Assembly: GCA_039700805.1 (NCBI GenBank) | Contig: JBCAZE010000003.1 | Location: forward strand, 1,552-65,551 | From: Pseudomonadota bacterium | GTDB lineage: Bacteria; Pseudomonadota; Gammaproteobacteria; Steroidobacterales; Woeseiaceae | DNA length: 64,000 nt | Reading direction: 5' to 3' | In this document: piece by piece, positions 20,259-40,040 of the stretch | Numbering within the stretch: the stretch's first letter is position 1 | Layout: every line of letters starts with the position of its first letter | Program-made: the position numbers and the translations under genes | Notes under the pieces: model-generated | Told to the model about the DNA's origin: nothing | Seen by the model: only the letters and a program-made list of their open reading frames with translations | Database searches by the model: none

Positions 20259-21407
20259 CTAGATGGAGCTCGAAGCTTCGCTGTCTCGAGCATGACTGGT
20301 CGCAGCTTCTGTCGTCAGATTGAGCAAGGATTCGGCGCTTTTTTTCCAACTGTGACGCTCGATGTTTTGCAGCCCTTTTCGGCGCAGCGCCTCTCTCAAG
20401 GTCTCATCTTCTTGAATCGCCACCATGGCGGTTGCCAGTGAACCAGGGTCATCCGGGTCAATAAAGACCGCGGCATCACCACAAACCTCTGGCATCGCGC
20501 TACGGTTTGACGCGATCACAGGGCAGCCTTGTGACATCGCTTCAACGGGCGGTAATCCGAAGCCTTCGTAGTAGGAGGGAAATACAAGGCAGACCGCCTG
20601 TCGATAAAGCGCAACCAATAACTCATCGGAGACGAATCCCAGGTGCTGAATGCGCTCACTCTCGAGCTCCACGGGACTGAAGTGTCCTTGGACTCTCTGC
20701 CCGACGATCACCAGCATAGGTGCATCATCACCCAACTGTCGTGTCGCTTCTACGACGGCACGAAAGTTCTTGTTGGGATTGGCGCTGGAAACCGCGAGGA
20801 TAAATGGCTTGTCGGTTAGGCCAAGATCCGCCAGCTCTTTCGTCGACGACTCCAGGCGGTGCATATGCTCAACACCCGGGCCACAGCGCTGCATCTTCTC
20901 AATGTTCAGTCCGATACAACGATTCAGCTCGGCGCGAGTGAACTCCGAATTGACCAATATGTGCTGAGAACAGCGCCCGGCCACACTGTAAAGAACGCGA
21001 TACCACGTACGAAAAGGGAATGAGAAATTCTCCCCGATCACGAACGGCTGCGCGTCGTGAAGATAAATGATTTGCTTACGTTTGATCAGCGGCCCGGTGT
21101 TGCAGAGACTGATCAACCATTCACCACGCGTGATCAGTGGAAGGGAAAACTGCTCCCAAGCGTGGCCATCAAACGACCCGAGTCGGCGCAGAGGTAAGTT
21201 TGGCCACGGCGATGTTGTCGACCCACCCTTAGGTGCGACCAAGATCATTTGGCAACGGCCTGCAGGCGTCATCCAACAACCATCTTCATCCAGCATTTGA
21301 CTCGCGATCACCGAGAGTACTTCTCGCGCTACGCGCTCAACACCGGTGGTCGGACGGTCGATAAACCGCGCGTTAATCCAGACACGATGCGAAATTTCAG
21401 ATGCCAT
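20259..21407 (-). CDS. Glycosyltransferase family 4 (GT-B)
   Basis: EX7E region YYEGFGLPPVEAMSQGCPVIASN. Start ATG 21407 with GGAGGGAAG upstream. Overlaps the stop of the upstream gene. Confidence 0.85.
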   Translation of the reverse strand: MASEISHRVWINARFIDRPTTGVERVAREVLSVIASQMLDEDGCWMTPAGRCQMILVAPKGGSTTSPWPNLPLRRLGSFDGHAWEQFSLPLITRGEWLISLCNTGPLIKRKQIIYLHDAQPFVIGENFSFPFRTWYRVLYSVAGRCSQHILVNSEFTRAELNRCIGLNIEKMQRCGPGVEHMHRLESSTKELADLGLTDKPFILAVSSANPNKNFRAVVEATRQLGDDAPMLVIVGQRVQGHFSPVELESERIQHLGFVSDELLVALYRQAVCLVFPSYYEGFGLPPVEAMSQGCPVIASNRSAMPEVCGDAAVFIDPDDPGSLATAMVAIQEDETLREALRRKGLQNIERHSWKKSAESLLNLTTEAATSHARDSEASSSI

Positions 21408-22669: not shown

Positions 22670-23914
22670 CTATCCGTGCGCTTGCGCGACGAGATTGCTG
22701 TGCTTTGTCACGACGCGACTCAAGAAATCGATGTACTCGTTTGCCCGCTTGGCAGGTTGATACTCATGCGATTTCGCGAGTGCTGCCTCCGCAAGTGAGG
22801 CACGAGAAGACTCGAAGGTACCCAGCATGTGCATACAATCGGCAAGTGCCATGACATTGCCCGCTTCAAACACCATGCCGTTTTTCAGATGCTCGATTGA
22901 CTCAGGAATACCGCCCATCGTCGATCCAATGACCGGCAATCCTTGCGAGAAGGCTTCGAACACGCCGTTGCCTAAGGCTTCTCTAAGTTCAGAGGGAAAT
23001 ACCAAGACATCGATCTCATTGAAGAACTTGGCGGTATCGACATAACCGGCAAACTCGACTGGCGCCTCGGCATATTGTTGCTTCAACCCCTCGATATAGG
23101 CTGGATCCCCGTTCCCGGCGATCACAACTTCAAGATCGAAGTCTTTGCTGCTGAGGTAGCGCATGGCCTCAAGTAATGTCTCGACACCTTTGGCTTTCTC
23201 AACGCGGCCGAGGAAACCGAATCTAATCGGTTTGCTCGTGTCGCGGTGGCCAACGCTCGACTGAATGGTCAGCGAGGGTTTCAGCGCATTGTAGATAACG
23301 GTTCGCTCGGCATCTTGGAACAAACCATGATCCACATGCGCATCGAGCACAGCGCGGCTTACGCCGATAACGGCATCGGCAGCGTTCGTGTGTCGCCACC
23401 GCCAGGACGTCAACAAGCGACAACTGGTGCAGCGCGCATCCTTTTGTCCGCACACCTTGCCGTTCCTGAACATGCTGGTCTGAGGACACAGCAACGAGAA
23501 GTCGTGAATAACGTGTACGAGTGGTAAGCCCAACTGTTTCACAGCCGGCATCACAGCGGTCGAGAAGCCTTGCAGATTTCTTGTCAGCACAACATCAGGC
23601 TGGATGTTTCGCAGCGCGGTTTTGACAGCAGATGCCATGAGTCCGTTGTGCGTATCGATGGCATGCCACAACGCCTTCGTAACGCGACTACGCGCATGCC
23701 GCTGTTGATCGAAGGGCCAATACAAATTTTTGAGCGGCGTGGGATGGACCGTTACCGAGGACCCGTTGGATTCTGGCTTCTTGGGGCCATCAAGCGTGAT
23801 GATGTGGACATCGTGGCCGGCACGCGCCATTTCGTCCGACATGACCTTCAATCCTTGCTCGGCGCCGCCAACAATATTGGGCGGGTACAGACTTGAGATA
23901 TTCACAATACGCAT
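22670..23914 (-). CDS. Glycosyltransferase family 4
   Basis: N-terminus RIVNISSLYPPNIVGGAEQ. C-terminal EALGNGVFEAFSQGLPVIGS. ATG 23914 overlaps the wzx stop (TGATG). Confidence 0.85.
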   Translation of the reverse strand: MRIVNISSLYPPNIVGGAEQGLKVMSDEMARAGHDVHIITLDGPKKPESNGSSVTVHPTPLKNLYWPFDQQRHARSRVTKALWHAIDTHNGLMASAVKTALRNIQPDVVLTRNLQGFSTAVMPAVKQLGLPLVHVIHDFSLLCPQTSMFRNGKVCGQKDARCTSCRLLTSWRWRHTNAADAVIGVSRAVLDAHVDHGLFQDAERTVIYNALKPSLTIQSSVGHRDTSKPIRFGFLGRVEKAKGVETLLEAMRYLSSKDFDLEVVIAGNGDPAYIEGLKQQYAEAPVEFAGYVDTAKFFNEIDVLVFPSELREALGNGVFEAFSQGLPVIGSTMGGIPESIEHLKNGMVFEAGNVMALADCMHMLGTFESSRASLAEAALAKSHEYQPAKRANEYIDFLSRVVTKHSNLVAQAHG

Positions 23915-25185
23915 CAACGCGACTCCTGCAATGACGAGGAAAACCGATAGGCCAGCATTTTGACGACTTCACCAATCACAAGCGCCGCGATGAGGCCGGT
24001 CACAGAAAAGTAGTAGGCCAGTACGCACGTCGCGATAATCTGGACGACAGCACCGAGCACGAGACTCTGAGAAAAGCGTCGCGTTTGACCGAGCGCCATC
24101 ACCGCTAACTGACCATAAGCGGTGACGATGATGTGGCATACAATCCAGACCTGAAGACACTGTAAGATCCAACTGAAGGCACTCATCTCTGAACCGAACA
24201 GCAAGTCGGTGACCGGGCGGGCGACGACAACCATGACTACCGCGGCAAGGATCACCGCCAGCGACGTCCCCAACACCCAACGTCTTGCAATTCGCGTGGC
24301 TGATGTTCGATCTTGCAACGCACGTTCTGAGATATAGGGATACAAGGCACGGATGATCGGCTGAAAACCACTGGCAACGGCCTTCGCAATCTTTTCCATC
24401 GCCGCGTAAATCCCGACCAGAGATTCACTCGCTAACAAGCTCAGCATGAAGACCGTGCTGTTGTTCGCAACGTTCATCGCGAACTCGGATGGCGTTAAGA
24501 AACGAACCTCGCGAAGCACATTCTTAACGATGGGTATGACCTCTGCCGGCGGCAAGAAAAAACGCATCCCCAGGCGTTTGATGGTCGTCATGTGGGCCAC
24601 GAAGCCAGCCACTGCAGTACCTGAGGCCTGCAAGAACGCGGCGAGCACGAGGTCGTCCGGTGAATCGATCAATAGAAAAATCAACACTGACACAAAGATG
24701 CGACCGGATACGGCGCAGATTGTTGTCATATGCATGATCTGCAGACCCTGGAACAACCAGGTGGGAAACAGGAACGTACCGAGTACGATCATGAACGTCG
24801 CCAGGTACACCGCCGCGTTTTCGGTGAGGGCGGGCACCGTATAGACAAGAACCACGAGCGTAAGGCTACCAACGATAGCGATCGCCGCACGCAGCCACTG
24901 TGTTGCTGCATAGACTTGCAAGACACGTGACGGGTCTTGCCGGCCTCTCGCGATCTCACGCGTCGCCAACGTGTTGAAACCAGCATCGATCAGCAGCACA
25001 AGAATCATCACCGTGGCGTAAGCAGTCGCCATCACGCCATAAGCCGCTGTACCAAGACGAGCGATCAGGAATGGAAGAATGATGACGGGGATGGCGTAGT
25101 TCGCCATCTGCAGGGCAAACAACGCTCGCGCGTTCGCCGCAACGCTCGCGGGCTGAACGGTCTCGGCTCGAGTGGCCGCGCTCAT
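23914..25185 (-). CDS. wzx: Oligosaccharide flippase (Wzx / MOP superfamily)
   Basis: About 12 TM segments. RfbX-like N-terminus. ATGA overlap with the upstream gene. Confidence 0.75.
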   Translation of the reverse strand: MSAATRAETVQPASVAANARALFALQMANYAIPVIILPFLIARLGTAAYGVMATAYATVMILVLLIDAGFNTLATREIARGRQDPSRVLQVYAATQWLRAAIAIVGSLTLVVLVYTVPALTENAAVYLATFMIVLGTFLFPTWLFQGLQIMHMTTICAVSGRIFVSVLIFLLIDSPDDLVLAAFLQASGTAVAGFVAHMTTIKRLGMRFFLPPAEVIPIVKNVLREVRFLTPSEFAMNVANNSTVFMLSLLASESLVGIYAAMEKIAKAVASGFQPIIRALYPYISERALQDRTSATRIARRWVLGTSLAVILAAVVMVVVARPVTDLLFGSEMSAFSWILQCLQVWIVCHIIVTAYGQLAVMALGQTRRFSQSLVLGAVVQIIATCVLAYYFSVTGLIAALVIGEVVKMLAYRFSSSLQESR

Positions 25186-26417
25186 GAAGCACCACTCTGT
25201 TTCGGATTCCCGAACATCAAGAGCGACTTCAACTCAGCCCACTGTTCATCAAACAGGCTGCTCTGCGTTTTCCGTTGGCTGACGTAAGCCTGTACCAACA
25301 CCCAGAACAAGCAGACAATACCAACACCAATAAAGGTCAGGATCGCGGCCAGAGCAGTGCGAGGTTTCGATTTATCATGCGGGGCAATGGCGTGATCTAA
25401 CACTTGGAACAATGACAAATCTCGTCGCTCATCGATCTTGCCGAGCTCACTCAGTTGACCGATCAACTCGACGATGTTCTCCCAGTAGCGCACGTCACGA
25501 CTACGCTGGGAGAATGCAAGCAAGGTATCGGGCACAGAGCCCAAGTTGACCATTGCATTGCCGTCCGCCTCGACCCCATTGGAAATTTTGGTCAGTCGAT
25601 CAAGTTCCGCGCGGAGTTCTTTGAGCTCTTTACGAATCAGAACGACGTCTTGGTTCGTGTCAGTGGCATACGAGGCCATTGTGCGCAACTGGATCTCTCG
25701 CGTCGCAATGCGACTTTGGATTTCGGCGGCGCCGAGTACGATCGTTTGATCTTGCCCGGCAATGCCGGCATAGCCAGTCTCTTTGTTGGTCGTTAGCAAG
25801 CGAAGGTCCGCATTGGCGAGATTCTGACGCGCAGCATCCAAAGCCGTCGCATAAAAGTCGGCACGCCGGCTTGCCTGTTGACGTGCGAGGTCCTGTGAGA
25901 ACTTATAGAACTCAGCAACGTAAGCATTCGAGAGATCCGCAGCGATCTGTCGATCGGTGTCTTCAACAGATACCGATACGATGCCATTTTTGGCAGCACG
26001 AATGACAGTAGCGCCGCTGAGTTTGCGGCGCGCATCAGCGATCTGGGCCACACCGTAATATTCGAGCAACTGCTGCCGCTCGATAACCGCATCAACAATA
26101 GTGCGACTCGTGAGGATGCCAACAAACAAATCGGTCGGGTTCTTCAATGCCAGTGCACTGTTACCCAGCTGACTTTCGCCGCCAAGCTGGTTTTGCATAG
26201 CCATGACCGTGTTCTCGTTGTACTGCGGCGGCAGCAAGCGTGCTGTCGCGGTGTAGATTGGGTCCGAGAGCTTGCAATAGACAATGGCAATGATCGCGCA
26301 AACGAGTGGTGTTCCAACCAGAAAACGAAAACGCCGCGCGGCGACAAGGAGCAACGGCATGATGCTCTGCGTCAACTCATCCCGCTTGGTCTCCTCGGGC
26401 GCTGGAGATGCCTCCAT
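25182..26417 (-). CDS. Polysaccharide chain-length determinant (PCP/Wzz/GumC-like) without a kinase domain
   Basis: TM segment + YTATARLLPPQ motif + long coiled-coil periplasmic region + C-terminal TM segment. ATG 26417 overlaps the exporter stop (TGATG). Confidence 0.7.
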   Translation of the reverse strand: MEASPAPEETKRDELTQSIMPLLLVAARRFRFLVGTPLVCAIIAIVYCKLSDPIYTATARLLPPQYNENTVMAMQNQLGGESQLGNSALALKNPTDLFVGILTSRTIVDAVIERQQLLEYYGVAQIADARRKLSGATVIRAAKNGIVSVSVEDTDRQIAADLSNAYVAEFYKFSQDLARQQASRRADFYATALDAARQNLANADLRLLTTNKETGYAGIAGQDQTIVLGAAEIQSRIATREIQLRTMASYATDTNQDVVLIRKELKELRAELDRLTKISNGVEADGNAMVNLGSVPDTLLAFSQRSRDVRYWENIVELIGQLSELGKIDERRDLSLFQVLDHAIAPHDKSKPRTALAAILTFIGVGIVCLFWVLVQAYVSQRKTQSSLFDEQWAELKSLLMFGNPKQSGAS

Positions 26418-28669
26418 CAGAAGACCTCCAAAAGGTTGAGGCCAGCGGCCCCCAGACCCAGCTGATACAAGACCTGAGTCCAATCTTTGATGCGCCGCAC
26501 CGTACGTTCTCTATCAACCTCTTCAGGAACAATGACGGTGTCGCCCGGGCGGATTCTTAGACCGCGCGTAACTTGACGGAATGAACCATCTGGACGAATG
26601 ACGTAAACATTTCGTGTATCAGCGACTTCCAAAAGACCTGCGTTCTGGAGGTAACCTTTGAGCTTGGTGCCGTTATAAATGAACGATCCCTGTCGATACA
26701 CAGCACCGACCACTTCGATCGTCGGTGGCACCGACGGCACGTGCAACACATCGCCGTCTTCGAGATTGAGTCGTGGCAACGCCGACGTACTGGTGATCTC
26801 GTCATCAAGCTCAAGGACAATGCGACCGTTGGGTTCACTTTCTCTTAGTTGCTCGATGAGACCACGAATAGCGGCAGCCTCGGGCATGATCGAATGCGTG
26901 AGATCACCCGTCAGCACATTCCGTGAGCGTTCTATCAGGTGGCGATAGTAGTCCTGCTCCAGTTGATCTATCGATTCATCGATTCGTTTGCGCTGTCGTT
27001 CACGGATCGAGGTGCGAGACATTTCCAGGCCATAGAGATAAGCCGCGTCCGTGAGTCCGCCGGCCATCCGCAAGGCATCTTCGATCGTATCGTTTGGCCC
27101 AACGGGATACACACCAGCACGTGCCACTTCGCCTTCGATCCGGACGAAACGACGCGTCGCGTCTCGTCGAACACGAAAGTCCTTGAGTGAAAATACCGTC
27201 ACACGGTCGCCCGGCTGTAGCAGGTGATCCTCGATCGGATTACGTTGGTTGACCACATCGCCAAGACGAAAGGGAATCAAGCTAGTCCGCAACGTGTTGG
27301 GATTAGTGCGCTCAATCACCGCGTATTCCCAATTGATGTCGGGGAAATCGATACGCAGGCCTGTATCTGCAGCCGTGGTGATGAGTTCGGCGACCTGTCG
27401 CTGCTCGTTTCTGCGTATCCAATAGTTCGGTGATATCAGCGCCTCGGCGTCGGGCAATAAGTCCGACAATCGCATACCGTCGCGCCATTCGTGACGCAGC
27501 GGCTGCGCGACATGTCCACGCAGTGTGACCGCGTTTTGGAACTGCGGTGAAATCGGCTGAACCAGCACCAGATCACCTTTTTGTAACGGGCGCTGCAGCG
27601 CTGCCTCGTCGAGCACAAATTCTTCGACCACACGCTGCCCGTCGGTGGATATGCGCTCCATGACAATGCGATGTTTGGTGGCAACAACACTGAGACCGCC
27701 CCCATGGGCCAGCAACTGAGCCAGAGTTTCGCCTTTCGCCAATTGGTAAATGCCCTGACGATTGATCGCACCAGCAAGCGCCACCTCACCGTGCATGGGC
27801 TGCAAGTGCAGCACATCACCAGTCCGCATGCGAAGAGAATGCTTGAACTGCCCGGCGTTTAAGAACTCGTAGAAGTCTGCCTCAAGCAAGACTTCGCCGT
27901 CACGCAACCACTGAATGCGCCGCAAGTCACCGGCGGCATCGGGACCGCCTGCATAAAACAACACGTTCATCGGTGTGGATAAGGCACTGACCGTGTAGCT
28001 GCCTGGGACGCGCGCAAAGCCGGTGACATAAACGCGAACGGATCGCAGCTGCCCCATAGCAACACTTAACTCAAAACTGTGAAACGCACGACCGATGGCC
28101 GCCTCGAGATGCGACTTGAGTTCACCGTATCGCACACCACGCAGCGGGATCTCACCAACCTTGGGCAACGAGATCACCCCGTTGCGATCAATGGTGACGC
28201 GTACATCGAGATCGATTGAGCCCCAAGCGCGGATATACACCTCATCGCCGCTATCGAGGACAAAGTCATCGGGCACGGCAATATCAGTTACTGGATCGAA
28301 ACCACGTGACGCGTCTGCAAATAACGAAGCGCCATAGACCGGCAACTTGAATCCGAGGGTTTGCTCAACCAATCGATGGAACGGCGATTCGCTAGGCGCT
28401 GGCAGCTCAAGCTTCGGCGCCTCAGTCGGGCTTTGAACCTTGCGCGGTTCGCGGACATCTAGCCGAAGGGTCGGATAAGTGATGTCCCCACCCGCGGGCA
28501 TCTCCATGCTGCCGAGGCCATCATTGGCAACCGGCAAGTCGGTCGTTAGCGGTGCGTTTTTCAGCGCTTGATAACGCTCGTTGGTACTTTGCGCGTTGGC
28601 GATATCAGTCGCAAACAGCGCAGTCGCTAGCAGCACCAATCCAGATAAAAACGTCGACTTTGGCATCAT
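26417..28669 (-). CDS. Large polysaccharide export protein (Wza-like Poly_export domain plus several SLBB domains)
   Basis: Signal peptide. LDSGDEVYIRAWGSIDLDVRVTIDRNGVISLPKVGEIPLRG, plus repeated GD.(V/L)...P SLBB-like modules. Confidence 0.85.
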   Translation of the reverse strand: MMPKSTFLSGLVLLATALFATDIANAQSTNERYQALKNAPLTTDLPVANDGLGSMEMPAGGDITYPTLRLDVREPRKVQSPTEAPKLELPAPSESPFHRLVEQTLGFKLPVYGASLFADASRGFDPVTDIAVPDDFVLDSGDEVYIRAWGSIDLDVRVTIDRNGVISLPKVGEIPLRGVRYGELKSHLEAAIGRAFHSFELSVAMGQLRSVRVYVTGFARVPGSYTVSALSTPMNVLFYAGGPDAAGDLRRIQWLRDGEVLLEADFYEFLNAGQFKHSLRMRTGDVLHLQPMHGEVALAGAINRQGIYQLAKGETLAQLLAHGGGLSVVATKHRIVMERISTDGQRVVEEFVLDEAALQRPLQKGDLVLVQPISPQFQNAVTLRGHVAQPLRHEWRDGMRLSDLLPDAEALISPNYWIRRNEQRQVAELITTAADTGLRIDFPDINWEYAVIERTNPNTLRTSLIPFRLGDVVNQRNPIEDHLLQPGDRVTVFSLKDFRVRRDATRRFVRIEGEVARAGVYPVGPNDTIEDALRMAGGLTDAAYLYGLEMSRTSIRERQRKRIDESIDQLEQDYYRHLIERSRNVLTGDLTHSIMPEAAAIRGLIEQLRESEPNGRIVLELDDEITSTSALPRLNLEDGDVLHVPSVPPTIEVVGAVYRQGSFIYNGTKLKGYLQNAGLLEVADTRNVYVIRPDGSFRQVTRGLRIRPGDTVIVPEEVDRERTVRRIKDWTQVLYQLGLGAAGLNLLEVF

Positions 28670-28885
28670 TTTCTCAAAGCATTGCTCATTACAGTTTGAT
28701 CATTATCATTATGATAAAACTGAGATACCGTGATCGAATTAGCAGTTTTAGTAATAATTCTGATACTAAATCTGTTACTAAATCGATAATAATGATATTT
28801 CTTGACGCGTTTTGTGACTTGAATCACGGACGAAAATCAAGAGACATCTACACTAATCGGCAGTCCGACGAGGAACTGAAATATC
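28670..28885. promoter_or_regulatory. AT-rich divergent control region of the two polysaccharide operons
   Basis: Visibly AT-rich compared with its flanks. Perfect 7-1-7 inverted repeat TTATCATtATGATAA (28703-28717). Direct repeat ACTAAATC at 28765 and 28777. TTGACG at 28802. Confidence 0.5.
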
Positions 28886-29488
28886 GTGAAAGAAAAACAG
28901 GTAACAGAGGCCGTTGTCGGCTCATTGCAAGCCGCCAAGATGCTCGGAGTGTCAGTGCGGACCATCCAGCTTTGGGTCGAGAAAGGGGTACTCAAAGCGT
29001 GGAAAACACCAGGCGGCCATCGCCGGATTACTGTCGCATCGATAGAACAAGCGCTTTTGAAGCCCGATTCAGGTACCGAACTGCCGACAGCACCTCAAAA
29101 CGACAAAAAACCACTAAAGGTTTTGGTGGTTGAGGACGAACCCTCTGTAAGCGCCTATAACGAAGCGCTCATTAGCATGGTGTGCCCTGGCGCAGTTTTG
29201 CTGTCCGCCACAGACGGGATAGAAGCGTTGCTGGTCATCGGAAGAGAGTCGCCCGATGTTGTGTTGCTAGATATCGACATACCGTTGATGGACGGATTGG
29301 TGATGCTGAGGAAGCTGAACGAAATGCAAATTGGCGAAAATATGCAAATCGCGATCGTATCGTCGCTCAGTGAAGCGCAGATCGCCGCACGTGGCGGACT
29401 ACCCGAGGGTATTGCCCGTTATCAAAAACCGCTGCCATTAGACGCATTGGAATCGATTCTCGCGGGTTCGAGAAAAGGAGAGCGCTAG
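28886..29488 (+). CDS. Response regulator with N-terminal excisionase/MerR-type HTH and C-terminal receiver
   Basis: HTH: LQAAKMLGVSVRTIQLWVEKGVLKAWKTPGGHRRI. REC: KVLVVEDEP...DVVLLDIDIPLMDG. GTG start. Confidence 0.8.
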   Translation: MKEKQVTEAVVGSLQAAKMLGVSVRTIQLWVEKGVLKAWKTPGGHRRITVASIEQALLKPDSGTELPTAPQNDKKPLKVLVVEDEPSVSAYNEALISMVCPGAVLLSATDGIEALLVIGRESPDVVLLDIDIPLMDGLVMLRKLNEMQIGENMQIAIVSSLSEAQIAARGGLPEGIARYQKPLPLDALESILAGSRKGER

Positions 29489-30033
29489 TGCGTGGAACGA
29501 TGTTTGTTGAGTTTTTCGATCATGTCGAGCGTCATCACGGCATCGACGTTGTCGATCGAATTATCGAGGAAAGCGCGCAGCACACCTCGACAGGTGGGGC
29601 GTACACCAGCGTCGGCAATTATCCGCACGGAGAATTGTTGGCACTCGCGACGGCACTGAGCAATGTCTGCGGCGAAGACCTCGTCAGCATTATCGATAAA
29701 TTCGCGATCCATATCATGGACGCCTTCAAACGCATGCACCCCGAATACTTCGAGGTTGGCAACGCGTTTGATTTCCTGAGTTCGGTGGGCGCGTCGATTC
29801 ACAAAGACGTCCGCAAACTATATCCCGATGCCAACCCGCCAGAGGTCGAAGCCTCACTACAGGCGGACGGCTCATTACTGCTGCATTACCGTTCACATCG
29901 ACCGCTCGCGCACCTAGCACTCGCGCTGACTCGGCTCGCAACACAAATGTATGGCGAGACAATCGACGTCGAGATCGTCGAGATGAGCGCGGAGGGGAAC
30001 GCAGCAGCAATGCGCCTGAGGCGAGCGCAATGA
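29488..30033 (+). CDS. hnoX: H-NOX (haem NO/O2-binding) sensor protein
   Basis: N-terminus MRGTMFVEFF..HG.DVVD. Proximal His105 in GASIHKDVRKLYPDANPP. Y134-x-S136-x-R138 haem-propionate motif (HYRSHR). GTG start overlaps the upstream stop (TAGTG), with AAAAGGAGAG upstream. Confidence 0.85.
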   Translation: MRGTMFVEFFDHVERHHGIDVVDRIIEESAQHTSTGGAYTSVGNYPHGELLALATALSNVCGEDLVSIIDKFAIHIMDAFKRMHPEYFEVGNAFDFLSSVGASIHKDVRKLYPDANPPEVEASLQADGSLLLHYRSHRPLAHLALALTRLATQMYGETIDVEIVEMSAEGNAAAMRLRRAQ

Positions 30034-31946
30034 GCGACAGCCAGTGGAAAGCCCGATTCGAACGGGAGCGCAACGCGCGTCAGCAGGCGGAGCGTATCTT
30101 GGAAGACAAGAGTCGTGAGCTTTATGAGGCAAATCAGAATTTGCTAGCCCTCACCCGCTCGCAAGATGTCGTCATTGAAGAGCGCACCAAAGAACTCCAC
30201 GCAACGATCGAGCAACTTAAGGGAGAAGCTGAGAAGCGCAAAGAGGCATCGAAAGAGCTGCGCGTCGCTCGCGATGAGGCGCTCGAACTTGCGCAAGTGA
30301 AGACCGATTTTCTAGCGCGGATGAGTCATGAAATCCGTACACCGATGAACGCGATCATTGGCCTCACGGGCGTTCTCCTCGACAAGATCAAAGATGCAGA
30401 ACTTGCCTCACATCTTCTGACAGTGCGTTCGAGCGGACATCTACTGCTCCGATTGATCAACGATATTCTCGACTTCTCGAAAGTTGACGCCGGCAAGATT
30501 GAACTCGAATACAACAATGCGTCACTGGAGTCTGTCATTCAGCAATCTGTTTCGCTGGTGATGCTGGAGGCCGATAAGAAGGAATCTCGTTTTGAGATTC
30601 AACGCGCCGAGGGTTTGCCGGAAAACATCGTTATCGATGCCGGACGCGTGGTTCAAGTGTTGAGCAACCTGGTCAACAACGCAGTCAAGTTCTCAGAAAA
30701 TGACATCATCAAGATCGCGGTTGAAGTCTCGAAGGAATCAATCCGTTTCGACGATGTTCCCGCGGAGATTCGCGCGCTCGATGACGGACAGCTGTTCGAT
30801 TATCGGTTTATCACCTTTGCGGTGACTGACCGTGGCATCGGTATTCATCCTGACAAGATCGACACACTTTTCGATCCATTTACCCAATTCGCCGGCGCAT
30901 CACCTGGCAGCTCCGGGCTGGGACTTGCGATTTGTAAGAGCCTTTGCGAGTGCATGGGCGGCGATATCTGGGTCACCAGTCAACCGGGCGAAGGATCGAC
31001 ATTCATTATTCGATTTATCTGTGGACTTGAGACAGCCACACGAGTAACGAAGGTCTATCAAGAAGAAGTCCTGGATTGTTCTGAAGAAACCGGTCGTCAT
31101 CTATTGTTGGGCGACGCGGCACTGGCAGCGAAACTCGGGGAAGCCCCGCTTGCGAGCAGCAAGCCGTTGCGCATACTCATTGCGGATGACTACGAGGTCA
31201 ATCGTATCGTCCAACAGGCGCAGCTCGATGCCCTAGGTTATCGAGCCGATACGGTGGCTAACGGTGAGGAAGTCCTGCGCGCGATCCATGCACGAGACTA
31301 CGACCTGATCATGATGGACATACGGATGCCCATCATGGACGGCGAGGAAACCACTCGTCGAATTCGATCCCATGCAGATCATCAGCCCTACATCGCAGCG
31401 GTAACAGCGAGCGCATTGAATGACGATCAGAAACGATTTGCGAAAGCTGGTTTCGATCGTTTCCTCGCGAAGCCGGTGGACGCAGCCGAGCTGGTGGAGA
31501 CATTAGAAGCAGCATTCGAGCATAAGCACGGACAAACCTCTGTACAGATGTTCTCGAACTCGGAGTTGATCGAGATCGAGCCGTTGGAACTCGATCACGA
31601 ATTTCTGACCAAGACGGTAGGGCCAGCACTCAACCAAGTTTTGGCACGTGTGGTACCGGTGTTCTTACGAGACTTACCAGACCGCTGTATTTCACTTGAG
31701 AAGAGTGTGAAAACCAAGGACGCGGAGTCGTTTGCATCCATTTGCCATGGCCTGAAAGGTGCAAGCCGAAGTGTCGGCGGCATGGACTTATCCGAGATGT
31801 GCGCCAGCTTTGAAGAACGTGCCTACAGTGGCTATGTCGCCAACGAAGATGAACTTGTTGAAATGACCAGCATGATCAACCGCACCCGTCGCGCGTTGGA
31901 GAGAAAACTCGCGACGATCAATGACCCATCGGAGGTGTCCGCATGA
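30030..31946 (+). CDS. Soluble hybrid histidine kinase (coiled coil-HisKA-HATPase-REC-HPt), H-NOX-associated
   Basis: H-box MSHEIRTPMNAIIG. G-boxes DRGIGI and GSSGLGLAICK. REC ILIADDYEVNR...DLIMMDIRMPIMDG. HPt ICHGLKGASRSVG. ATGA overlap with the H-NOX gene. Confidence 0.9.
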   Translation: MSDSQWKARFERERNARQQAERILEDKSRELYEANQNLLALTRSQDVVIEERTKELHATIEQLKGEAEKRKEASKELRVARDEALELAQVKTDFLARMSHEIRTPMNAIIGLTGVLLDKIKDAELASHLLTVRSSGHLLLRLINDILDFSKVDAGKIELEYNNASLESVIQQSVSLVMLEADKKESRFEIQRAEGLPENIVIDAGRVVQVLSNLVNNAVKFSENDIIKIAVEVSKESIRFDDVPAEIRALDDGQLFDYRFITFAVTDRGIGIHPDKIDTLFDPFTQFAGASPGSSGLGLAICKSLCECMGGDIWVTSQPGEGSTFIIRFICGLETATRVTKVYQEEVLDCSEETGRHLLLGDAALAAKLGEAPLASSKPLRILIADDYEVNRIVQQAQLDALGYRADTVANGEEVLRAIHARDYDLIMMDIRMPIMDGEETTRRIRSHADHQPYIAAVTASALNDDQKRFAKAGFDRFLAKPVDAAELVETLEAAFEHKHGQTSVQMFSNSELIEIEPLELDHEFLTKTVGPALNQVLARVVPVFLRDLPDRCISLEKSVKTKDAESFASICHGLKGASRSVGGMDLSEMCASFEERAYSGYVANEDELVEMTSMINRTRRALERKLATINDPSEVSA

Positions 31947-32692
31947 AAAACGGGACCAATGCCGCGACCATCGAAGCGCATGACGAACTGCTAGACCCAA
32001 TGGCGTTTGCCATGAAGCATTCGAGCGGTAGACGGAGAAATCGCTTCACGCGCAAAGTGTTTCTTGCCTTCTGGTGGTTGAATATTCGCGTGCAGCGCGC
32101 CCTGAAGCGGTGTATCGACTTTCTAGGCGCAGCGGTAGGACTATTGCTGCTCTCGCCTTTGCTGATCATTGTCGCAATCTGCATCAAACTAGATTCGCGT
32201 GGCCCCGTGTTTTACTCGCAGATTCGAGTCGGCGAACGTGGAAAGACATTTCGTATGTACAAGTTTCGCTCGATGCGCACAGATGCCGACGAAGTTCGTG
32301 CCGAGCTCGAAGCTGCGAACGAAAGTGCCGATGGCGTCATCTTCAAAATGAAAGAGGACCCGCGTGTCACTCGACTTGGGCGGTTCATACGCCGATTCTC
32401 GATCGATGAACTTCCGCAGCTCTACAACATCCTCCGTGGCGATATGGCAATCGTTGGACCAAGACCCGCATTGCCATCGGAAGTCGCACAATACGACATC
32501 CAAGCCCGCAAGCGACTGCAAACCAAGCCGGGCCTGACATGCATCTGGCAAGTCAGCGGCCGCTCGAATCTGTCCTTCTCTCAGCAGATTGATCTCGATA
32601 TCGAATACTTGAGTTCGAAGTCGACGAAAAAGGACATCGAGCTCATCGCAAAAACCATCCCGGCGGTGATTGATAGCGACGGGGCGTACTAG
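31943..32692 (+). CDS. Undecaprenyl-phosphate sugar phosphotransferase (WbaP/ExoY-type priming enzyme)
   Basis: Bacterial sugar-transferase motifs PVFYSQIRVGERGK.F.MYKFRSM, DELPQLYNILRGDMAIVGPRP and KPGLTCIWQVSGRS. ATGA overlap with the kinase gene. Confidence 0.9.
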   Translation: MKNGTNAATIEAHDELLDPMAFAMKHSSGRRRNRFTRKVFLAFWWLNIRVQRALKRCIDFLGAAVGLLLLSPLLIIVAICIKLDSRGPVFYSQIRVGERGKTFRMYKFRSMRTDADEVRAELEAANESADGVIFKMKEDPRVTRLGRFIRRFSIDELPQLYNILRGDMAIVGPRPALPSEVAQYDIQARKRLQTKPGLTCIWQVSGRSNLSFSQQIDLDIEYLSSKSTKKDIELIAKTIPAVIDSDGAY

Positions 32693-33648
32693 TGAGCGGT
32701 ACGCAGATAGAGCCACCGATTGCTGTGATCGGCTTTAGCAACCTTGGATCACCGATAGAGGAAGCTTGGCCATCGACCCACCGGGCGCTACTGCCGATAG
32801 CGGGGCAACCGGTGATCGTCCGACTGATGCAGCAATTGAGCGCCCAAGGCATCTCGCATTTACGAATCGCGGGCTCTATTCAGCAGGTCGCTGTCAAACA
32901 GCGAATCGGTGATGGTTCTGAGTGGGGACTAAAGGTGCGCTACTCGGACTTGCACGGCGCTGACCTTCGCAGCCAAACGCTTCTGGAGAGAGGTCGATGC
33001 TTATACCTCGCAGGCGACGTGCTGCACGCCGGACGGTTCGAATCGTCGGGCGCTCTGGGCCGCATGGAAACGACGAAACGACTGTCGGCTGTGGAAGAAG
33101 AGTCGAGTCTCTGGGCGTTGGATGTAAACGGTGAACAACGATTGCGACTCAGCCCCGTTCGCAACGAGGCAACGGCAAGCCTGCGATTGGCGGACGCCGG
33201 CAGTTTCCATCGGGCAAACCTCGCGGCCGTCAAAGGCTTAATCAACAACATCAACATTCCAGGTCGTCAAATGCGCTCGGGCGTGTGGGAAGACTGGTCT
33301 ACCGACGTCGCCGACGATGCGCATATCGGCGACCGAGTCGTTATTGGCAAACACTGTTCGATCGGCAGTGGTGTGAAACTGCATTCCGATGTGATCGTTG
33401 GCAACGGCTGCATCATCATGAAGCACGCCCAGCTCAAGAATGTAACGCTACTGCCCAATACCTACATTGGTTCAGACGTGCGATTGCGCGATGCCATCGT
33501 CAGCCCGATTGGCATTTTCGACTTTGGTGACCACTACTGGCCAATTGGTAATGAACATCTCATCAGTCGCTCTCGCAGCAACCAAGAGGCTGCGACGGGT
33601 ATTCCGAGCGAACACCTGAACCTAACCGAAAAGGAATTGCGCACCTAA
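32692..33648 (+). CDS. Nucleotidyltransferase-like / left-handed beta-helix protein with degenerate NTP-binding motif
   Basis: N-terminal NTP_transferase-like fold signature (LLPIAGQPVIVRLMQQL), but AVIGFSNLGSP replaces G-x-G-T-R. C-terminal hexapeptide repeats IGDRVVIGKHCSIGSGVKLHSDVIVGNGC. TAGTG overlap. Confidence 0.55.
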   Translation: MSGTQIEPPIAVIGFSNLGSPIEEAWPSTHRALLPIAGQPVIVRLMQQLSAQGISHLRIAGSIQQVAVKQRIGDGSEWGLKVRYSDLHGADLRSQTLLERGRCLYLAGDVLHAGRFESSGALGRMETTKRLSAVEEESSLWALDVNGEQRLRLSPVRNEATASLRLADAGSFHRANLAAVKGLINNINIPGRQMRSGVWEDWSTDVADDAHIGDRVVIGKHCSIGSGVKLHSDVIVGNGCIIMKHAQLKNVTLLPNTYIGSDVRLRDAIVSPIGIFDFGDHYWPIGNEHLISRSRSNQEAATGIPSEHLNLTEKELRT

Positions 33649-33670
33649 CGCCGCGCATACGGAGCAAACC

Positions 33671-34894
33671 ATGAAAGTTGCGATTATCCACGATTGGTGC
33701 GTTGTCTACGGCGGTGCGGAACGCGTCCTCGAACACATTATCGACTGCTATCCGCAGGCTGACATCTTTTCTCTTATCGACAAAGTCCCCGAGGAACAGC
33801 GTCACTTCTTGCGAGGAAAAACGGTCAATACCAGTTTCTTGCAGCGAATTCCGAAAATCGAAAAACTGTATCGAAAGCTGCTGTTTTTGATGCCGTACGC
33901 AATCGAGCAATTCGATCTTACGGAGTATGACCTCGTGATCTCGTCAAGCTACTGCGTGGCAAAGGGCGTTCTGACGGGTCCAAACCAACTGCATGTCAGC
34001 TACTGCCATTCCCCAATGCGCTATGCATGGGATCACTATCATGAATACTTGCACGAAATGAACCTCGGCAATGGACCTATCGGACTCTTCGCTAAGAGAA
34101 CACTCCATAAGATTCGGGACTGGGATGTTCGGTCCTCCAATACTGTCGATCGCTTTGTTGCCAATTCAAGCTTCGTTAACGCGCGCATCAAAAAATTCTA
34201 TCGCCGAGACAGCGATATCGTGTTCCCGCCGGTGGAAACGTCAATCTTCGAGGTGCAACACCACAAAGAGGACTATTACGTCACGGCGGGTCGATTCGTG
34301 CCCTTCAAACGGCTCGATTTGGTTGTGGATGCGTTCCGAGAAATGCCAGACAAGAAGTTAATCGTTGTCGGCGACGGACCCGACCGCGGCAAGCTCGAAT
34401 CAAAGGCTGGGTCGAACGTCACATTCACTGGTTTCTTGTCGGCACCCGAAGTCGCGAATTATCTCGGACGTGCAAAGGCGTTCCTCTTTCCCTCAGAGGA
34501 AGACTTTGGCATCGTGCCCGTAGAGGCTCAGGCTTCGGGAACGCCAGTCATTGCCTTTGGGTCTGGTGGCGCGCTCGAAACAGTTGTCAGTCCGGAGCAG
34601 GCTAAGCGCACACAGTCTCAACCCACCGGCTTGTTCTTCAACCGACAAACGCCAGGCGCCATCGTCGACGCTGTCAAACGCTTCGAAGATAACATCTCGA
34701 TCTTCGAGCCGGCGGCGATTAGCCGTCACGCCAGCAGCTTTGCACCGAGCGCCTTCAAAGAAGCGCTCCTCGCGAGTGTTGCACGCGCGTGGCAGGAAAA
34801 AGCATACCGACCCAACATTCCACCGACGGGTTCTGACAACAACTGGTCTACGGAGATAACCGACGCTCGTGATTCACTATCCAATGTCGGCTGA
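33671..34894 (+). CDS. Glycosyltransferase family 4
   Basis: MKVAIIHDW..YGGAERV at the N-terminus. EDFGIVPVEAQASGTPVIAFGSGGALETV. Confidence 0.85.
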   Translation: MKVAIIHDWCVVYGGAERVLEHIIDCYPQADIFSLIDKVPEEQRHFLRGKTVNTSFLQRIPKIEKLYRKLLFLMPYAIEQFDLTEYDLVISSSYCVAKGVLTGPNQLHVSYCHSPMRYAWDHYHEYLHEMNLGNGPIGLFAKRTLHKIRDWDVRSSNTVDRFVANSSFVNARIKKFYRRDSDIVFPPVETSIFEVQHHKEDYYVTAGRFVPFKRLDLVVDAFREMPDKKLIVVGDGPDRGKLESKAGSNVTFTGFLSAPEVANYLGRAKAFLFPSEEDFGIVPVEAQASGTPVIAFGSGGALETVVSPEQAKRTQSQPTGLFFNRQTPGAIVDAVKRFEDNISIFEPAAISRHASSFAPSAFKEALLASVARAWQEKAYRPNIPPTGSDNNWSTEITDARDSLSNVG

Positions 34895-34911
34895 GACCAA
34901 AACGCGTATCA

Positions 34912-40032: not shown

Positions 40033-40040
40033 AAATATTT

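What the first reader, a model, noticed from the sequence alone, without database searches (positions are those of the whole stretch)
28886..34894. H-NOX nitric-oxide sensor and its hybrid kinase are translationally coupled to the priming glycosyltransferase of an EPS locus
**Seen in the sequence**
- Six same-strand genes. The first four junctions are start/stop overlaps: TAGTG, ATGA, ATGA, TAGTG.
- Gene order: HTH-REC regulator, H-NOX, soluble HisKA-HATPase-REC-HPt kinase, undecaprenyl-phosphate sugar transferase, NTP-transferase-like protein, GT4.
- The H-NOX protein has His105 and the Y134-x-S136-x-R138 motif.
- The operon is divergent from a wza-wzz-wzx-GT-wzy-GT operon.

**Established knowledge**
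- H-NOX proteins paired with histidine kinases or diguanylate cyclases control biofilm in Shewanella, Vibrio, Legionella and Pseudoalteromonas. This usually works through c-di-GMP or quorum-sensing phosphorelays encoded elsewhere.

**Inference**
- Here the sensor module is hard-wired into the polysaccharide operon itself. A DNA-binding response regulator is present and no c-di-GMP enzyme is in sight.
- That suggests direct NO-to-EPS transcriptional control. I do not recognise this wiring as described.
Basis: partly seen in the sequence, partly recalled or inferred. Interest (0 to 1): 0.65.

Follow-up and report, generated by a model that had tools for sequence, protein, structure and literature searches.

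The report
NO-sensor phosphorelay built into polysaccharide locus
An uncultured marine bacterium carries a nitric-oxide sensor, its kinase and a DNA-binding regulator inside a surface-polysaccharide gene cluster, and the same repeated DNA motif sits at the cluster's promoters, so the gas signal probably switches polysaccharide genes on or off directly.

Summary
All six genes, their domains, the four start/stop overlaps, the H-NOX haem residues and the divergent wza-wzz-wzx-GT-wzy-GT operon are as described.

**Conservation.** The two-operon cassette recurs at 43-56% H-NOX identity in an uncultured Woeseiaceae genome assembled from a metagenome, in other gammaproteobacterial assemblies and in metagenome contigs. 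Rearranged versions keep the linkage. One has the sensor module directly upstream of wza. Two have only the regulator plus a REC-HPt protein.

**New finding.**
- The regulator's DNA-binding domain is BldC-like.
- A motif of direct repeats about 9 bp apart (TGATA-N4-TGATA) marks the cassette promoters.
- A matrix built only from relatives puts its five best hits in the 64-kb window inside the 216-bp divergent intergenic region.
- In relatives with a gap between the kinase and glycosyltransferase genes, the motif fills that gap.
- The motif is also enriched upstream of distant homologues of the regulator.

**Independent case.** Verrucomicrobia pair H-NOX, a hybrid kinase and a sigma-54 regulator divergently with an operon led by a priming glycosyltransferase.

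**Best model.** NO-bound H-NOX inhibits a four-step phosphorelay to the regulator, which controls the polysaccharide promoters. The polarity is unknown.

**Precedents.** Vibrio fischeri HnoX/HahK-Syp and Shewanella HnoC. This is a new variant of a known kind.

The parts
28886..29488 (+). Response regulator with an N-terminal BldC/excisionase-like winged HTH (residues ~15-57) and a C-terminal receiver domain (E83/D84, D129, S159, K181).
   Evidence: Pfam HTH_17 1.9e-10, MerR 3e-9, Response_reg 2.8e-13. NCBIfam excise domain and HTH_BldC 6e-8, below cut-off. PDB hits to BldC 6ama/6amk, E 1e-3. Receiver residues.
29488..30033 (+). Stand-alone H-NOX haem sensor. It has H105, P118 and Y134-S136-R138, and an apolar distal pocket (F9/I76/L143 in place of Tt W9/N74/Y140).
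   Evidence: Pfam HNOB 1.7e-30. Invariant residues in 23 homologues. PDB H-NOX hits. Alignment to Tt H-NOX 1U4H.
30030..31946 (+). Soluble hybrid histidine kinase: coiled-coil N-terminus, HisKA (H100), HATPase (N216, D267xGxG, G293 box), REC (D430), HPt (H573).
   Evidence: Pfam. NCBIfam TorS/BarA/ArcB-like, all below cut-offs. No hydrophobic segment. Residue positions.
31943..32692 (+). Small monotopic polyprenyl-phosphate glycosyl-1-phosphate transferase (priming enzyme). Its start overlaps the kinase stop (ATGA).
   Evidence: Pfam Bac_transf 1.7e-65. NCBIfam EPS_sugtrans/EpsZ/WbaP C-terminal region. One hydrophobic segment at 56-86. Junction.
32692..33648 (+). Protein with a left-handed beta-helix (hexapeptide) and a weak N-terminal sugar-1-phosphate nucleotidyltransferase-like region (GlmU/GMPPB-like layout).
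   Evidence: Pfam Hexapep, LbH_EIF2B. NCBIfam weak matches at residues 28-93 to Man-1-P guanylyltransferase, RmlA and MurU.
33671..34894 (+). GT4 glycosyltransferase, the last gene of the sensor-plus-biosynthesis operon.
   Evidence: Pfam Glycos_transf_1 6.8e-24.
28670..28885 (.). Divergent control region, 216 bp, 34% GC. It holds five matches to the ~9-bp direct-repeat motif: 28687-28706 (-), 28693-28712 (-), 28708-28727 (+), 28748-28767 (+) and 28780-28799 (+, AAATCGATAATAATGATATT, 26.4 bits).
   Evidence: The matrix was built from relatives only. These are the only hits of 12 bits or more in 64 kb. Dinucleotide shuffles of the region give a mean of 0.11 hits and at most 2 in 1000.
28813..28828 (+). 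CRP-like palindrome TGTGACTTGAATCACG, about 28.5 bp upstream of a putative -10 (TACACT, 28849-28854) for the regulator operon. A weaker mirror box, CGTGATCGAATTAGCA, lies at 28729-28744 and faces the wza promoter (putative -10 GATAAT on the minus strand, 28702-28707).
   Evidence: Pattern search and manual geometry. Equivalent boxes occur in L001, L004, L005, L085 and L087. The box is not common upstream of the regulator's distant homologues: 4 of 72 loci at one mismatch or fewer, against 0.46 expected. The promoter assignment is inference.
26417..28669 (-). Wza-type outer-membrane polysaccharide export protein (OPX), first gene of the divergent operon.
   Evidence: Pfam Poly_export, SLBB. NCBIfam EpsE, below cut-off.
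25182..26483 (-). Wzz/PCP chain-length protein with two transmembrane segments and no tyrosine-kinase domain.
   Evidence: Pfam Wzz. Hydropathy.
23914..25185 (-). Wzx flippase.
   Evidence: Pfam Polysacc_synt 2.5e-36.
22670..23917 (-). GT4 glycosyltransferase.
   Evidence: Pfam.
21397..22665 (-). Polytopic membrane protein, candidate Wzy polymerase.
   Evidence: No Pfam or NCBIfam hit. About 9-10 hydrophobic segments. Position conserved in relatives at 46-61% identity.
20259..21518 (-). GT4 glycosyltransferase, the last gene of the divergent operon. The true start is probably downstream of the listed TTG.
   Evidence: Pfam. tblastn matches in relatives start at about residue 46.

Best explanation
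The locus is a self-contained, gas-regulated polysaccharide cassette.

**Shown by sequence**
- A stand-alone H-NOX has all haem-binding residues and an apolar distal pocket.
- A soluble hybrid kinase follows, with every phosphorelay site intact (H100, D430, H573).
- A response regulator has a BldC-like winged HTH fused to a receiver domain (D129).
- All three are co-oriented with, and here overlap, a priming glycosyl-phosphate transferase, an LbH protein and a GT4.
- They are divergent from a Wza-Wzz-Wzx-GT-Wzy-GT operon.

**Shown by comparison**
- The linkage is conserved and survives rearrangement.
- A motif of direct repeats about 9 bp apart, (T/C)GA(T/A)A-N4-(T/C)GA(T/A)A, marks the wza promoter, the regulator promoter and, where the glycosyltransferase has its own promoter, that one too.
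- The same motif recurs upstream of distant homologues of the regulator.

**Inferred mechanism**
1. NO binds the H-NOX haem.
2. As in every characterised H-NOX/kinase pair, the NO-bound sensor inhibits kinase autophosphorylation.
3. This lowers phosphate flow H100 to D430 to H573 to D129 of the regulator.
4. The regulator binds the ~9-bp repeats head-to-tail, as BldC does. Several sites overlap the putative -10/start region, so it probably acts as a repressor whose DNA binding changes with phosphorylation.
5. By analogy with HnoC, where the unphosphorylated form represses, NO would shut polysaccharide synthesis off. The opposite sign is not excluded.

A CRP-family activator probably supplies a second input through the TGTGA-N6-TCACA boxes.
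For: - **Domains and residues:**
- **Conserved cassette:** L001/L002, L004, L005 (uncultured Woeseiaceae), L008 and L086. Rearranged but still linked in L007 (regulator-H-NOX-kinase directly upstream of wza-wzz-wzx-GT-wzy-GT).
- **Variants without the sensor:** L085 and L087 keep the regulator plus a REC-HPt-only protein next to the same polysaccharide operon. This points to HPt-to-regulator as the core link and H-NOX/kinase as the input.
- **Motif in the window:** the matrix was trained on 12 sites from relatives. All five hits of 12 bits or more in the 64-kb window lie in the 216-bp intergenic region, against 0.11 expected from shuffles.
- **Motif in untrained gaps:** motif matches (mostly pairs) sit in the kinase-glycosyltransferase gaps of L004, L005, L008, L085 and L087, and in the kinase-wza gap of L007.
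- **Held-out homologues of the regulator:** 12 of 72 upstream regions reach 20 bits, against 0.06 expected.
- **Spacing, independent of the matrix:** half-site spacing peaks at 9, 10 and 18 bp: 16, 8 and 10 observed, against about 0.2 expected.
- **Negative control:** 4 hits of 20 bits or more in 1.31 Mb of other H-NOX loci, and none in the verrucomicrobial control regions.
- **BldC precedent:** BldC binds 9-bp direct repeats head-to-tail (PMC5859096). The HTH matches BldC structures.
- **Independent parallel:** Puniceicoccaceae, Coraliomargarita and Pelagisphaera assemblies place H-NOX, a PAS hybrid kinase and a sigma-54 regulator divergently from a transferase-GT-Wza-Wzz operon.
- **NO-bound H-NOX inhibits its kinase in known systems:** PMC4436077, PMC8738867.
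Against: - There is no experimental or expression evidence. No RNA run holds the locus.
- The assignment of the repeat motif to this regulator rests on co-occurrence. Another AT-binding factor could use it.
- In the window itself the strongest sites lie upstream of the regulator operon's putative promoter, not over its start. The sign and mode of control at that promoter are therefore unclear.
- HnoC is reported to bind palindromes, not direct repeats (PMC9938897), so the HnoC analogy for polarity is weak.
- Promoter positions are consensus guesses. The sigma-70 scan found nothing above chance.
- H-NOX proteins can also report redox state, so NO may not be the only ligand (my own knowledge, not checked here).
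- The HPt domain could also serve regulators encoded elsewhere.
Confidence: 0.6

Rival explanations
1. The regulator only autoregulates its own signalling operon, as Shewanella HnoC does. The real output of the H-NOX/kinase is elsewhere, for example c-di-GMP enzymes or other regulators fed by the HPt domain. The polysaccharide genes would then be controlled mainly by the CRP-like factor and merely share the neighbourhood.
For: HnoC represses the hno genes themselves (PMC8738867). CRP-like boxes sit at about -41 of the cassette promoters. In the closest relative an HD_5/HD-domain gene flanks the cassette. HPt domains can serve several receivers.
Against: The repeat motif is also found over the putative -10/start of the wza promoter (window 28687-28706; L001, L004, L086). 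It is also in the separate glycosyltransferase promoters of five relatives, none of which were used for training. The linkage to polysaccharide genes survives rearrangement (L007) and loss of the sensor (L085, L087).
Confidence: 0.15
2. The phosphorelay controls the polysaccharide locus, but the H-NOX reports something other than NO, such as redox state, oxidants or another diatomic gas.
For: Ligand specificity cannot be read from sequence with certainty. H-NOX proteins have been proposed as redox sensors (my own knowledge, not checked here).
Against: The proximal His, YxSxR and Pro are conserved. The distal pocket is apolar (F9/I76/L143), with no counterpart of the O2-stabilising Tyr140 network of Tt H-NOX. 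This pattern goes with NO-selective H-NOX proteins. Relatives of the likely host family carry nitrite reductases that make NO (PMC12175321).
Confidence: 0.15
3. The adjacency has no functional meaning. A signalling operon landed next to a polysaccharide cluster and has been inherited passively in one lineage.
For: Only about 6 of 80 species-level loci with the most similar H-NOX genes have polysaccharide genes within 10 kb. The gammaproteobacterial cassettes form one H-NOX clade, so common descent explains part of the synteny.
Against: Protein identities of 43-62% imply long divergence with synteny kept. Three different rearrangements keep the linkage. A shared operator motif sits at every promoter. 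An independent verrucomicrobial arrangement uses a different regulator type.
Confidence: 0.05

Closest known systems
Vibrio fischeri HnoX/HahK to SypF(HPt) to SypG, controlling the syp polysaccharide locus
   Same: An H-NOX controls a hybrid histidine kinase. The phosphorelay ends in a DNA-binding response regulator that transcribes a polysaccharide biosynthesis and export locus, and the route as described names no c-di-GMP enzyme. NO inhibits biofilm there (PMC8738867; PMC12369376).
   Different: - In V. fischeri, by my recollection (not checked here), hnoX-hahK lies away from syp and feeds in through the HPt domain of another kinase.
- The regulator there is sigma-54 dependent.
- Here the sensor, the kinase with its own HPt and the regulator lie inside the locus, and the regulator is a BldC-like HTH-REC protein.
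- The verrucomicrobial loci found here (L011, L014, L041) resemble the Syp design more closely, because they use a sigma-54 regulator.
Shewanella oneidensis HnoX/HnoK network with the MerR-type response regulator HnoC
   Same: An H-NOX-regulated kinase phosphorylates a response regulator with a MerR-type HTH. That regulator acts as a repressor near -10/start and is relieved by phosphorylation (PMC8738867; PMC9938897 discussion).
   Different: - HnoC is reported to regulate the hno signalling genes and to recognise palindromes. The main biofilm output there is c-di-GMP, through HnoB and HnoD.
- Here the candidate operators are direct repeats about 9 bp apart, the targets include polysaccharide biosynthesis and export operons, and no c-di-GMP enzyme is nearby.
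Streptomyces BldC (MerR-like winged HTH binding 9-bp direct repeats head-to-tail)
   Same: The regulator's HTH matches BldC structures and the BldC family model, including the wing motif T-x-G-G-H-R-R. The candidate operators are 2-4 direct repeats with a pitch of about 9 bp, which is the BldC binding geometry (PMC5859096).
   Different: - BldC is a 68-residue protein with no signalling domain. Here the domain is fused to a receiver domain, which would make oligomerisation on DNA sensitive to phosphorylation.
- The repeat sequence differs: TGATA-type here, AATT-N4-C for BldC.
- The NCBIfam BldC model scores below its cut-off.
Other H-NOX / hybrid-kinase pairs (Pseudoalteromonas atlantica HahK, Vibrio harveyi HqsK, Silicibacter SiliHK)
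   Same: A stand-alone H-NOX lies next to a soluble hybrid kinase, and NO-bound H-NOX inhibits autophosphorylation (PMC4436077; PMC8738867).
   Different: Those kinases need a separate HPt protein (SiliHpt, LuxU) and end in a diguanylate cyclase, a phosphodiesterase or quorum-sensing regulators. Here the HPt domain is fused to the kinase and the regulator is encoded in the same operon.

Membership tests
H-NOX (haem NO/oxygen-binding, Pfam HNOB) | Full-length match to the HNOB domain above the curated cut-off | tested here: met
   106.6 bits against a cut-off of 25.5, covering model positions 2-162 of 163. PDB H-NOX hits at 2e-20.
H-NOX (haem NO/oxygen-binding, Pfam HNOB) | Proximal histidine, Y-x-S-x-R propionate-binding motif and the conserved proline | tested here: met
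   H105, Y134/S136/R138 and P118 align with Tt H102, Y131/S133/R135 and P115. They are invariant in 23 homologues.
H-NOX (haem NO/oxygen-binding, Pfam HNOB) | NO-selective subtype: no distal hydrogen-bonding Tyr network | tested here: met
   Tt W9/N74/Y140 align with F9/I76/L143. That this pattern predicts NO selectivity is established knowledge, not tested here.
H-NOX (haem NO/oxygen-binding, Pfam HNOB) | Binds haem and NO | not testable with these tools
   Needs spectroscopy on the purified protein.
H-NOX-associated histidine kinase (HnoK/HahK type) | Kinase gene immediately next to hnoX, soluble, without its own sensor domain | tested here: met
   ATGA overlap with hnoX. No transmembrane segment. 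Only a coiled-coil N-terminus precedes HisKA.
H-NOX-associated histidine kinase (HnoK/HahK type) | Intact catalytic and phosphorelay residues | tested here: met
   H100, N216, D267xGxG, G293 box, D430 and H573.
H-NOX-associated histidine kinase (HnoK/HahK type) | Autophosphorylation inhibited by NO-bound H-NOX | not testable with these tools
   Needs a biochemical assay.
HnoC-type (MerR-type HTH) response regulator | MerR-type HTH combined with a receiver domain | tested here: met
   Pfam MerR 3e-9, HTH_17 1.9e-10 and Response_reg 2.8e-13. The PDB REC domain of a 'merR family DNA-binding response regulator' (3cnb) matches at 8e-15.
HnoC-type (MerR-type HTH) response regulator | Sequence orthology to S. 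oneidensis HnoC | not tested
   The HnoC sequence and the primary papers (PMC3845109, PMC3361614) were not available.
HnoC-type (MerR-type HTH) response regulator | Palindromic operator overlapping -10/start | tested here: inconclusive
   The enriched motif is a direct repeat, not a palindrome. In relatives, sites do overlap the putative -10/start. Palindromic CRP-like boxes also exist but do not travel with the regulator family.
BldC family (MerR-like winged HTH on direct repeats) | Match to the BldC family model above its cut-off | tested here: not met
   NF033787 HTH_BldC scores 32.4 bits against a cut-off of 77. BldC structures are hit at only E 1e-3. The domain is a relative, not a member.
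BldC family (MerR-like winged HTH on direct repeats) | Binds direct repeats with a 9-bp pitch, head-to-tail | tested here: inconclusive
   Candidate operators have exactly this geometry. Binding itself is untested.
Wzx/Wzy-dependent polysaccharide locus | Priming phosphoglycosyl transferase, Wzx flippase, Wzy-like polymerase, PCP (Wzz) and OPX (Wza) all present | tested here: met
   Pfam Bac_transf, Polysacc_synt, Wzz and Poly_export/SLBB. The Wzy candidate is supported only by topology and conserved position.
WbaP/WcaJ-type large priming transferase | Full-length architecture of about 450-480 aa with an N-terminal membrane domain | tested here: not met
   The protein is 249 aa and matches only the C-terminal catalytic part (model positions ~250-456) of the WbaP, WcaJ and EPS_sugtrans models, below their cut-offs. 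It is a small monotopic member of the same superfamily.

The most novel reading that the evidence does not exclude
The HTH-REC proteins of this family are phosphorylation-switchable BldC-like regulators that polymerise head-to-tail on repeats about 9 bp apart. This would be a response-regulator output class not yet characterised. In a marine gammaproteobacterial lineage related to Woeseiaceae, this regulator together with a REC-HPt relay is the built-in master switch of a Wzx/Wzy polysaccharide cassette. An H-NOX/kinase head has been plugged into it as an exchangeable NO input. Verrucomicrobia have arrived independently at the same H-NOX-to-polysaccharide wiring with a sigma-54 regulator. Direct transcriptional coupling of NO sensing to polysaccharide synthesis, bypassing c-di-GMP, would then be a recurrent solution in surface-attached marine bacteria.
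Probability: 0.4. Interest if true: 0.7.

Novelty: new variant of a known kind. Interest (0 to 1): 0.55.

Why it matters
- **A direct, measurable output.** Most H-NOX pathways end in c-di-GMP or quorum-sensing networks whose final targets are diffuse. Here the sensor, relay, transcription factor, candidate operators and regulated structural genes all lie within 15 kb. The route from NO to polysaccharide can be tested with a handful of constructs.
- **A possible new regulator class.** The data predict that a large, uncharacterised family of HTH_17/MerR-REC regulators, with more than 590 relatives in metagenomes, uses BldC-style binding to repeats about 9 bp apart.
- **Ecology.** The organism occurs in marine, plastisphere and coral-reef metagenomes. 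Its relatives are surface-attached partial denitrifiers that make NO. NO-gated polysaccharide production could therefore matter for attachment and dispersal on particles and plastics.

Tried and rejected
- **Leader peptide.** A conserved 'ATGATCAAACTG' element upstream of wza looked like a 4-6 codon leader ORF (MIKL*). It is better explained as two units of the 9-bp repeat, and the reading frame is not conserved.
- **CRP-like palindrome as the regulator's own operator.** Rejected as the primary candidate. It is not common upstream of the regulator's distant homologues (4 of 72 loci at one mismatch or fewer, against 0.46 expected), whereas the repeat motif is enriched.
- **Sigma-70 promoter and terminator scan of 28000-35500.** Nothing above chance.
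- **Rfam search.** No riboswitch or other RNA in the control region. The only window hit is a cobalamin riboswitch elsewhere.
- **Expression data.** No RNA run holds the locus.
- **HnoC primary papers.** Not held in the library, so the HnoC operator and sequence could not be compared.
- **L003.** This contig has the regulator and H-NOX followed by unrelated genes. It is a 1x-coverage contig, so I treated it as uninformative for downstream synteny.
- **Searches left unused.** I ran no further search on the regulator. Its hundreds of unnamed close metagenomic relatives would have filled the output before any named Shewanella protein.

Full report
**1. Observation**

Pfam gives these domains:
- 28886-29488: HTH_17/MerR plus Response_reg.
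- 29488-30033: HNOB.
- 30030-31946: HisKA, HATPase_c, Response_reg and Hpt.
- 31943-32692: Bac_transf.
- 32692-33648: hexapeptide repeats.
- 33671-34894: GT4.

I read the junctions directly. They are TAGTG, ATGA, ATGA and TAGTG, followed by a 22-nt gap. A GGAGG lies 8 nt before the ATG of the priming transferase.

H105 and Y134-x-S136-x-R138 are present in the H-NOX protein. Together with P118 they are invariant across 23 homologues.

The divergent operon is Wza (750 aa), Wzz, Wzx, GT4, a protein with about 9-10 transmembrane segments and no Pfam match (a Wzy candidate), and GT4. The locus is bounded by acnB on one side and by a dihaem cytochrome c gene on the other.

The kinase has no transmembrane segment. 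No GGDEF, EAL or HD-GYP domain was found in 46 larger ORFs of the window, and there is no c-di-GMP riboswitch.

The kinase/transferase junction lies inside one contig of the source run. An identical contig from a second sample spans it, so it is not an assembly chimera.

**2. Sensor and relay**

I aligned the H-NOX to Thermoanaerobacter tengcongensis H-NOX. The alignment pairs:
- H105 with H102.
- P118 with P115.
- Y134/S136/R138 with Y131/S133/R135.
- F9/I76/L143 with the O2-stabilising network W9/N74/Y140.

The distal pocket is therefore apolar, the pattern found in NO-selective H-NOX proteins (established knowledge).

The kinase has H100 in the H-box, the N and G boxes, receiver D430 and HPt H573. 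The regulator has E83/D84, D129, S159 and K181. A complete His-Asp-His-Asp relay is thus encoded in three consecutive overlapping genes.

**3. Conservation of the linkage**

The nearest H-NOX homologue is only 56% identical. Its contig carries the same two operons in the same order (L001/L002).

The same cassette occurs in:
- L004.
- L005, an uncultured Woeseiaceae genome assembled from a metagenome.
- L008, an uncultured gammaproteobacterium.
- L086, at least in part: this short contig reaches only from wza to the kinase gene.

Three kinds of rearrangement keep the linkage:
- L007, a Pseudomonadales assembly, has regulator-H-NOX-kinase directly upstream of wza-wzz-wzx-GT-wzy-GT on the same strand.
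- L085 and L087 have the polysaccharide operon divergent from the regulator, followed by a 304-aa protein that is only REC-HPt. They have no kinase core and no H-NOX.
- L088 and L092 have regulator-kinase with no H-NOX between them.

This pattern suggests the regulator plus the REC-HPt relay is the resident controller of the cassette. The H-NOX/kinase head would then be an input module.

About 70 of the 80 species-level loci with the most similar H-NOX genes have no polysaccharide genes within 10 kb; many pair the H-NOX with a kinase-like gene.

**4. An independent second case**

Three verrucomicrobial assemblies (Puniceicoccaceae, Coraliomargarita, Pelagisphaera; L011, L014, L041) show a parallel layout.
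- Plus strand: H-NOX, then a PAS-PAS hybrid kinase with REC and HPt, then a sigma-54 NtrC-type regulator.
- Divergent operon: a 170-aa protein, a Bac_transf priming enzyme, a WecG/GT2/GT4 fusion, Wza and Wzz.

The regulator type differs, so this looks like a separate solution to the same wiring. It resembles the Syp system.

**5. Control regions**

I compared the regions upstream of the regulator gene in the relatives. Two recurrent elements appeared.

*Direct repeats.* The first element is 2-4 direct repeats of (T/C)GA(T/A)A with a pitch of about 9 bp. They usually lie between a putative -10 and the ribosome-binding site. I built a 20-bp matrix from 12 such sites, none taken from the window. 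The tests gave:
- **Window.** All five hits of 12 bits or more on either strand of the 64-kb window lie at 28687-28799, inside the 216-bp divergent region. The best is AAATCGATAATAATGATATT at 26.4 bits. Across 1000 dinucleotide shuffles of that region the mean is 0.11 hits and the maximum is 2.
- **Untrained promoters.** Relatives with a 100-250 bp gap between kinase and priming transferase (L004, L005, L008, L085, L087) have motif matches, mostly in pairs, in exactly that gap. L007 has a pair between the kinase gene and wza.
- **Held-out homologues.** Among 72 metagenomic homologues of the regulator (35-47% identical, mostly with none of the cassette's polysaccharide genes nearby), 12 have a hit of 20 bits or more within 200 bp upstream. 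Shuffles predict 0.06.
- **Spacing without the matrix.** The spacing of strict TGA(T/A)A half-sites in those 72 regions peaks at 9 bp (16 observed), 10 bp (8) and 18 bp (10). About 0.2 is expected at each.
- **Negative control.** In 1.31 Mb of other H-NOX loci there are four hits of 20 bits or more. The verrucomicrobial control regions have none.

*CRP-like boxes.* The second element is a TGTGA-N6-TCACA box centred about 41 bp upstream of the putative starts of the cassette promoters. In the window it is 28813-28828. It is a perfect palindrome in L001 and L087. It is not common upstream of the regulator's distant homologues: 4 of 72 loci at one mismatch or fewer, against 0.46 expected.

**6. 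What binds the repeats**

The regulator's HTH matches these models and structures:
- The excisionase/HTH_17 and MerR models.
- The NCBIfam BldC model, at 6e-8 and below its cut-off.
- The BldC-DNA structures 6ama and 6amk. The wing motif T-x-G-G-H-R-R is shared.

Each BldC protomer binds one unit of a 9-bp direct repeat, and protomers assemble head-to-tail in variable numbers (PMC5859096). The candidate operators have exactly this geometry.

The motif travels with the regulator family across unrelated contexts. The simplest reading is therefore that the regulator binds it and that the family is generally autoregulated. This is inference from co-occurrence, not a demonstration.

**7. Mechanism and polarity**

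In every studied pair, NO-bound H-NOX inhibits its kinase (PMC4436077; PMC8738867). NO should therefore lower phosphorylation of the regulator.

In the window one site (28687-28706, minus strand) overlaps the putative -10 and start of the wza promoter. Relatives also have sites just downstream of the -10 of the regulator and transferase promoters. These positions fit repression.

If the regulator behaves like HnoC, where the unphosphorylated form represses and phosphorylation relieves repression (PMC8738867; PMC9938897), then NO would switch the polysaccharide off. That is the same sign as in V. fischeri. I put this at only slightly better than even.

At the window's regulator-operon promoter the strong sites lie upstream of the CRP-like box, so activation is also conceivable.

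**8. The translational-coupling point**

The ATGA overlap between kinase and priming transferase is real here. The closest relative has a 10-bp gap. Other relatives have a separate promoter region that carries the same motif.

The fusion into one operon is therefore a derived way of achieving the same co-regulation. It is not the ancestral or defining feature.

**9. Comparison with known systems**

- **V. fischeri HnoX/HahK to SypF to SypG to syp** is the closest in logic (PMC8738867; PMC12369376). By my recollection, not checked here, hnoX-hahK lies away from syp there. It differs in location and in regulator type.
- **Shewanella HnoC** is the closest known regulator by domain type. It is reported to bind palindromes and to control signalling genes. 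Its sequence could not be compared.
- **BldC** is the closest model for DNA binding, but it has no receiver domain.

I found no paper describing H-NOX genes inside a polysaccharide cluster. The library is incomplete, so this is weak evidence of absence.

**10. Host and ecology**

The best genome match is an uncultured Woeseiaceae assembly. The window sequence occurs in marine, plastisphere and coral-reef metagenomes. Woeseiaceae are mostly surface-attached, and many carry partial denitrification pathways that produce NO (PMC12175321). This gives a plausible source for the signal.

**11. Verdict**

The system is a new variant of known H-NOX two-component signalling. It is of moderate interest, mainly because the whole path from sensor to structural genes is local and testable, and because it points to a BldC-like class of response regulators.

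Noticed in passing
window 4317-4528 (+), upstream of 4637-6556: Cobalamin riboswitch (Rfam RF00174, 101 bits) directly upstream of a TonB-dependent receptor gene. This looks like a BtuB-type B12 uptake unit.
   Followed up: no
window 37441-40703: NAD salvage cluster: nicotinamide/nicotinate phosphoribosyltransferase (37441-38823), a cytidylyltransferase-like plus Nudix fusion (38884-39960), and a divergent NrtR-type Nudix/winged-helix regulator (40041-40703).
   Followed up: no
window 34912-37295 (-): An SO2930-family dihaem c-type cytochrome (399 bits, above cut-off) sits next to a NosD-like right-handed beta-helix protein. The pair is convergent with the end of the polysaccharide operon. The neighbours differ in the relatives examined, so it is probably unrelated to the cassette.
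   Followed up: partly
window 15480-17066 (-): Orphan PAS-PAS-HisKA-HATPase kinase just beyond acnB, with no response-regulator domain in the next ORF (14757-15347, no Pfam match). It could be a second input to the same or another relay.
   Followed up: no
window 42987-52139 (+): A LuxR/GerE-type regulator is followed by four ORFs with no Pfam match (44225-47029), a 1012-aa subtilase and an LCAT-like lipase. This is an uncharacterised, possibly secreted-enzyme cluster.
   Followed up: no
window 28813-28828 and 28729-28744; L001 9353, L087 2667, L085 8971: CRP-type boxes (TGTGA-N6-TCACA, perfect in L001 and L087) lie about 41 bp upstream of the putative starts of the cassette promoters. This suggests a second input from a CRP/Vfr/Clp-type factor.
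   Followed up: partly
L085 8014-8928; L087 1789-2547: Cassette variants in which the regulator gene overlaps (ATGA) a stand-alone REC-HPt protein. These loci have no kinase core and no H-NOX, so an unlinked kinase must feed them.
   Followed up: partly
L001 1-740; L002 10258-11970: In the closest relative the cassette is flanked on one side by an HD_5/HD-domain gene, which may be HD-GYP-like. About 1 kb beyond the other end is a fused ATP-sulfurylase/APS-kinase gene. These hint at c-di-GMP turnover and polysaccharide sulfation in that genome. Neither gene is present in the window.
   Followed up: no
L011 5659-8586 (-): A verrucomicrobial 975-aa fusion of WecG/TagA, GT2 and GT4 glycosyltransferase domains in one polypeptide, inside the H-NOX-linked polysaccharide operon.
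   Followed up: no
window 20-682 (+): HDOD-domain protein, cut by the start of the window. It is the only signalling-output-like domain found outside the locus, and it is not a c-di-GMP enzyme.
   Followed up: no
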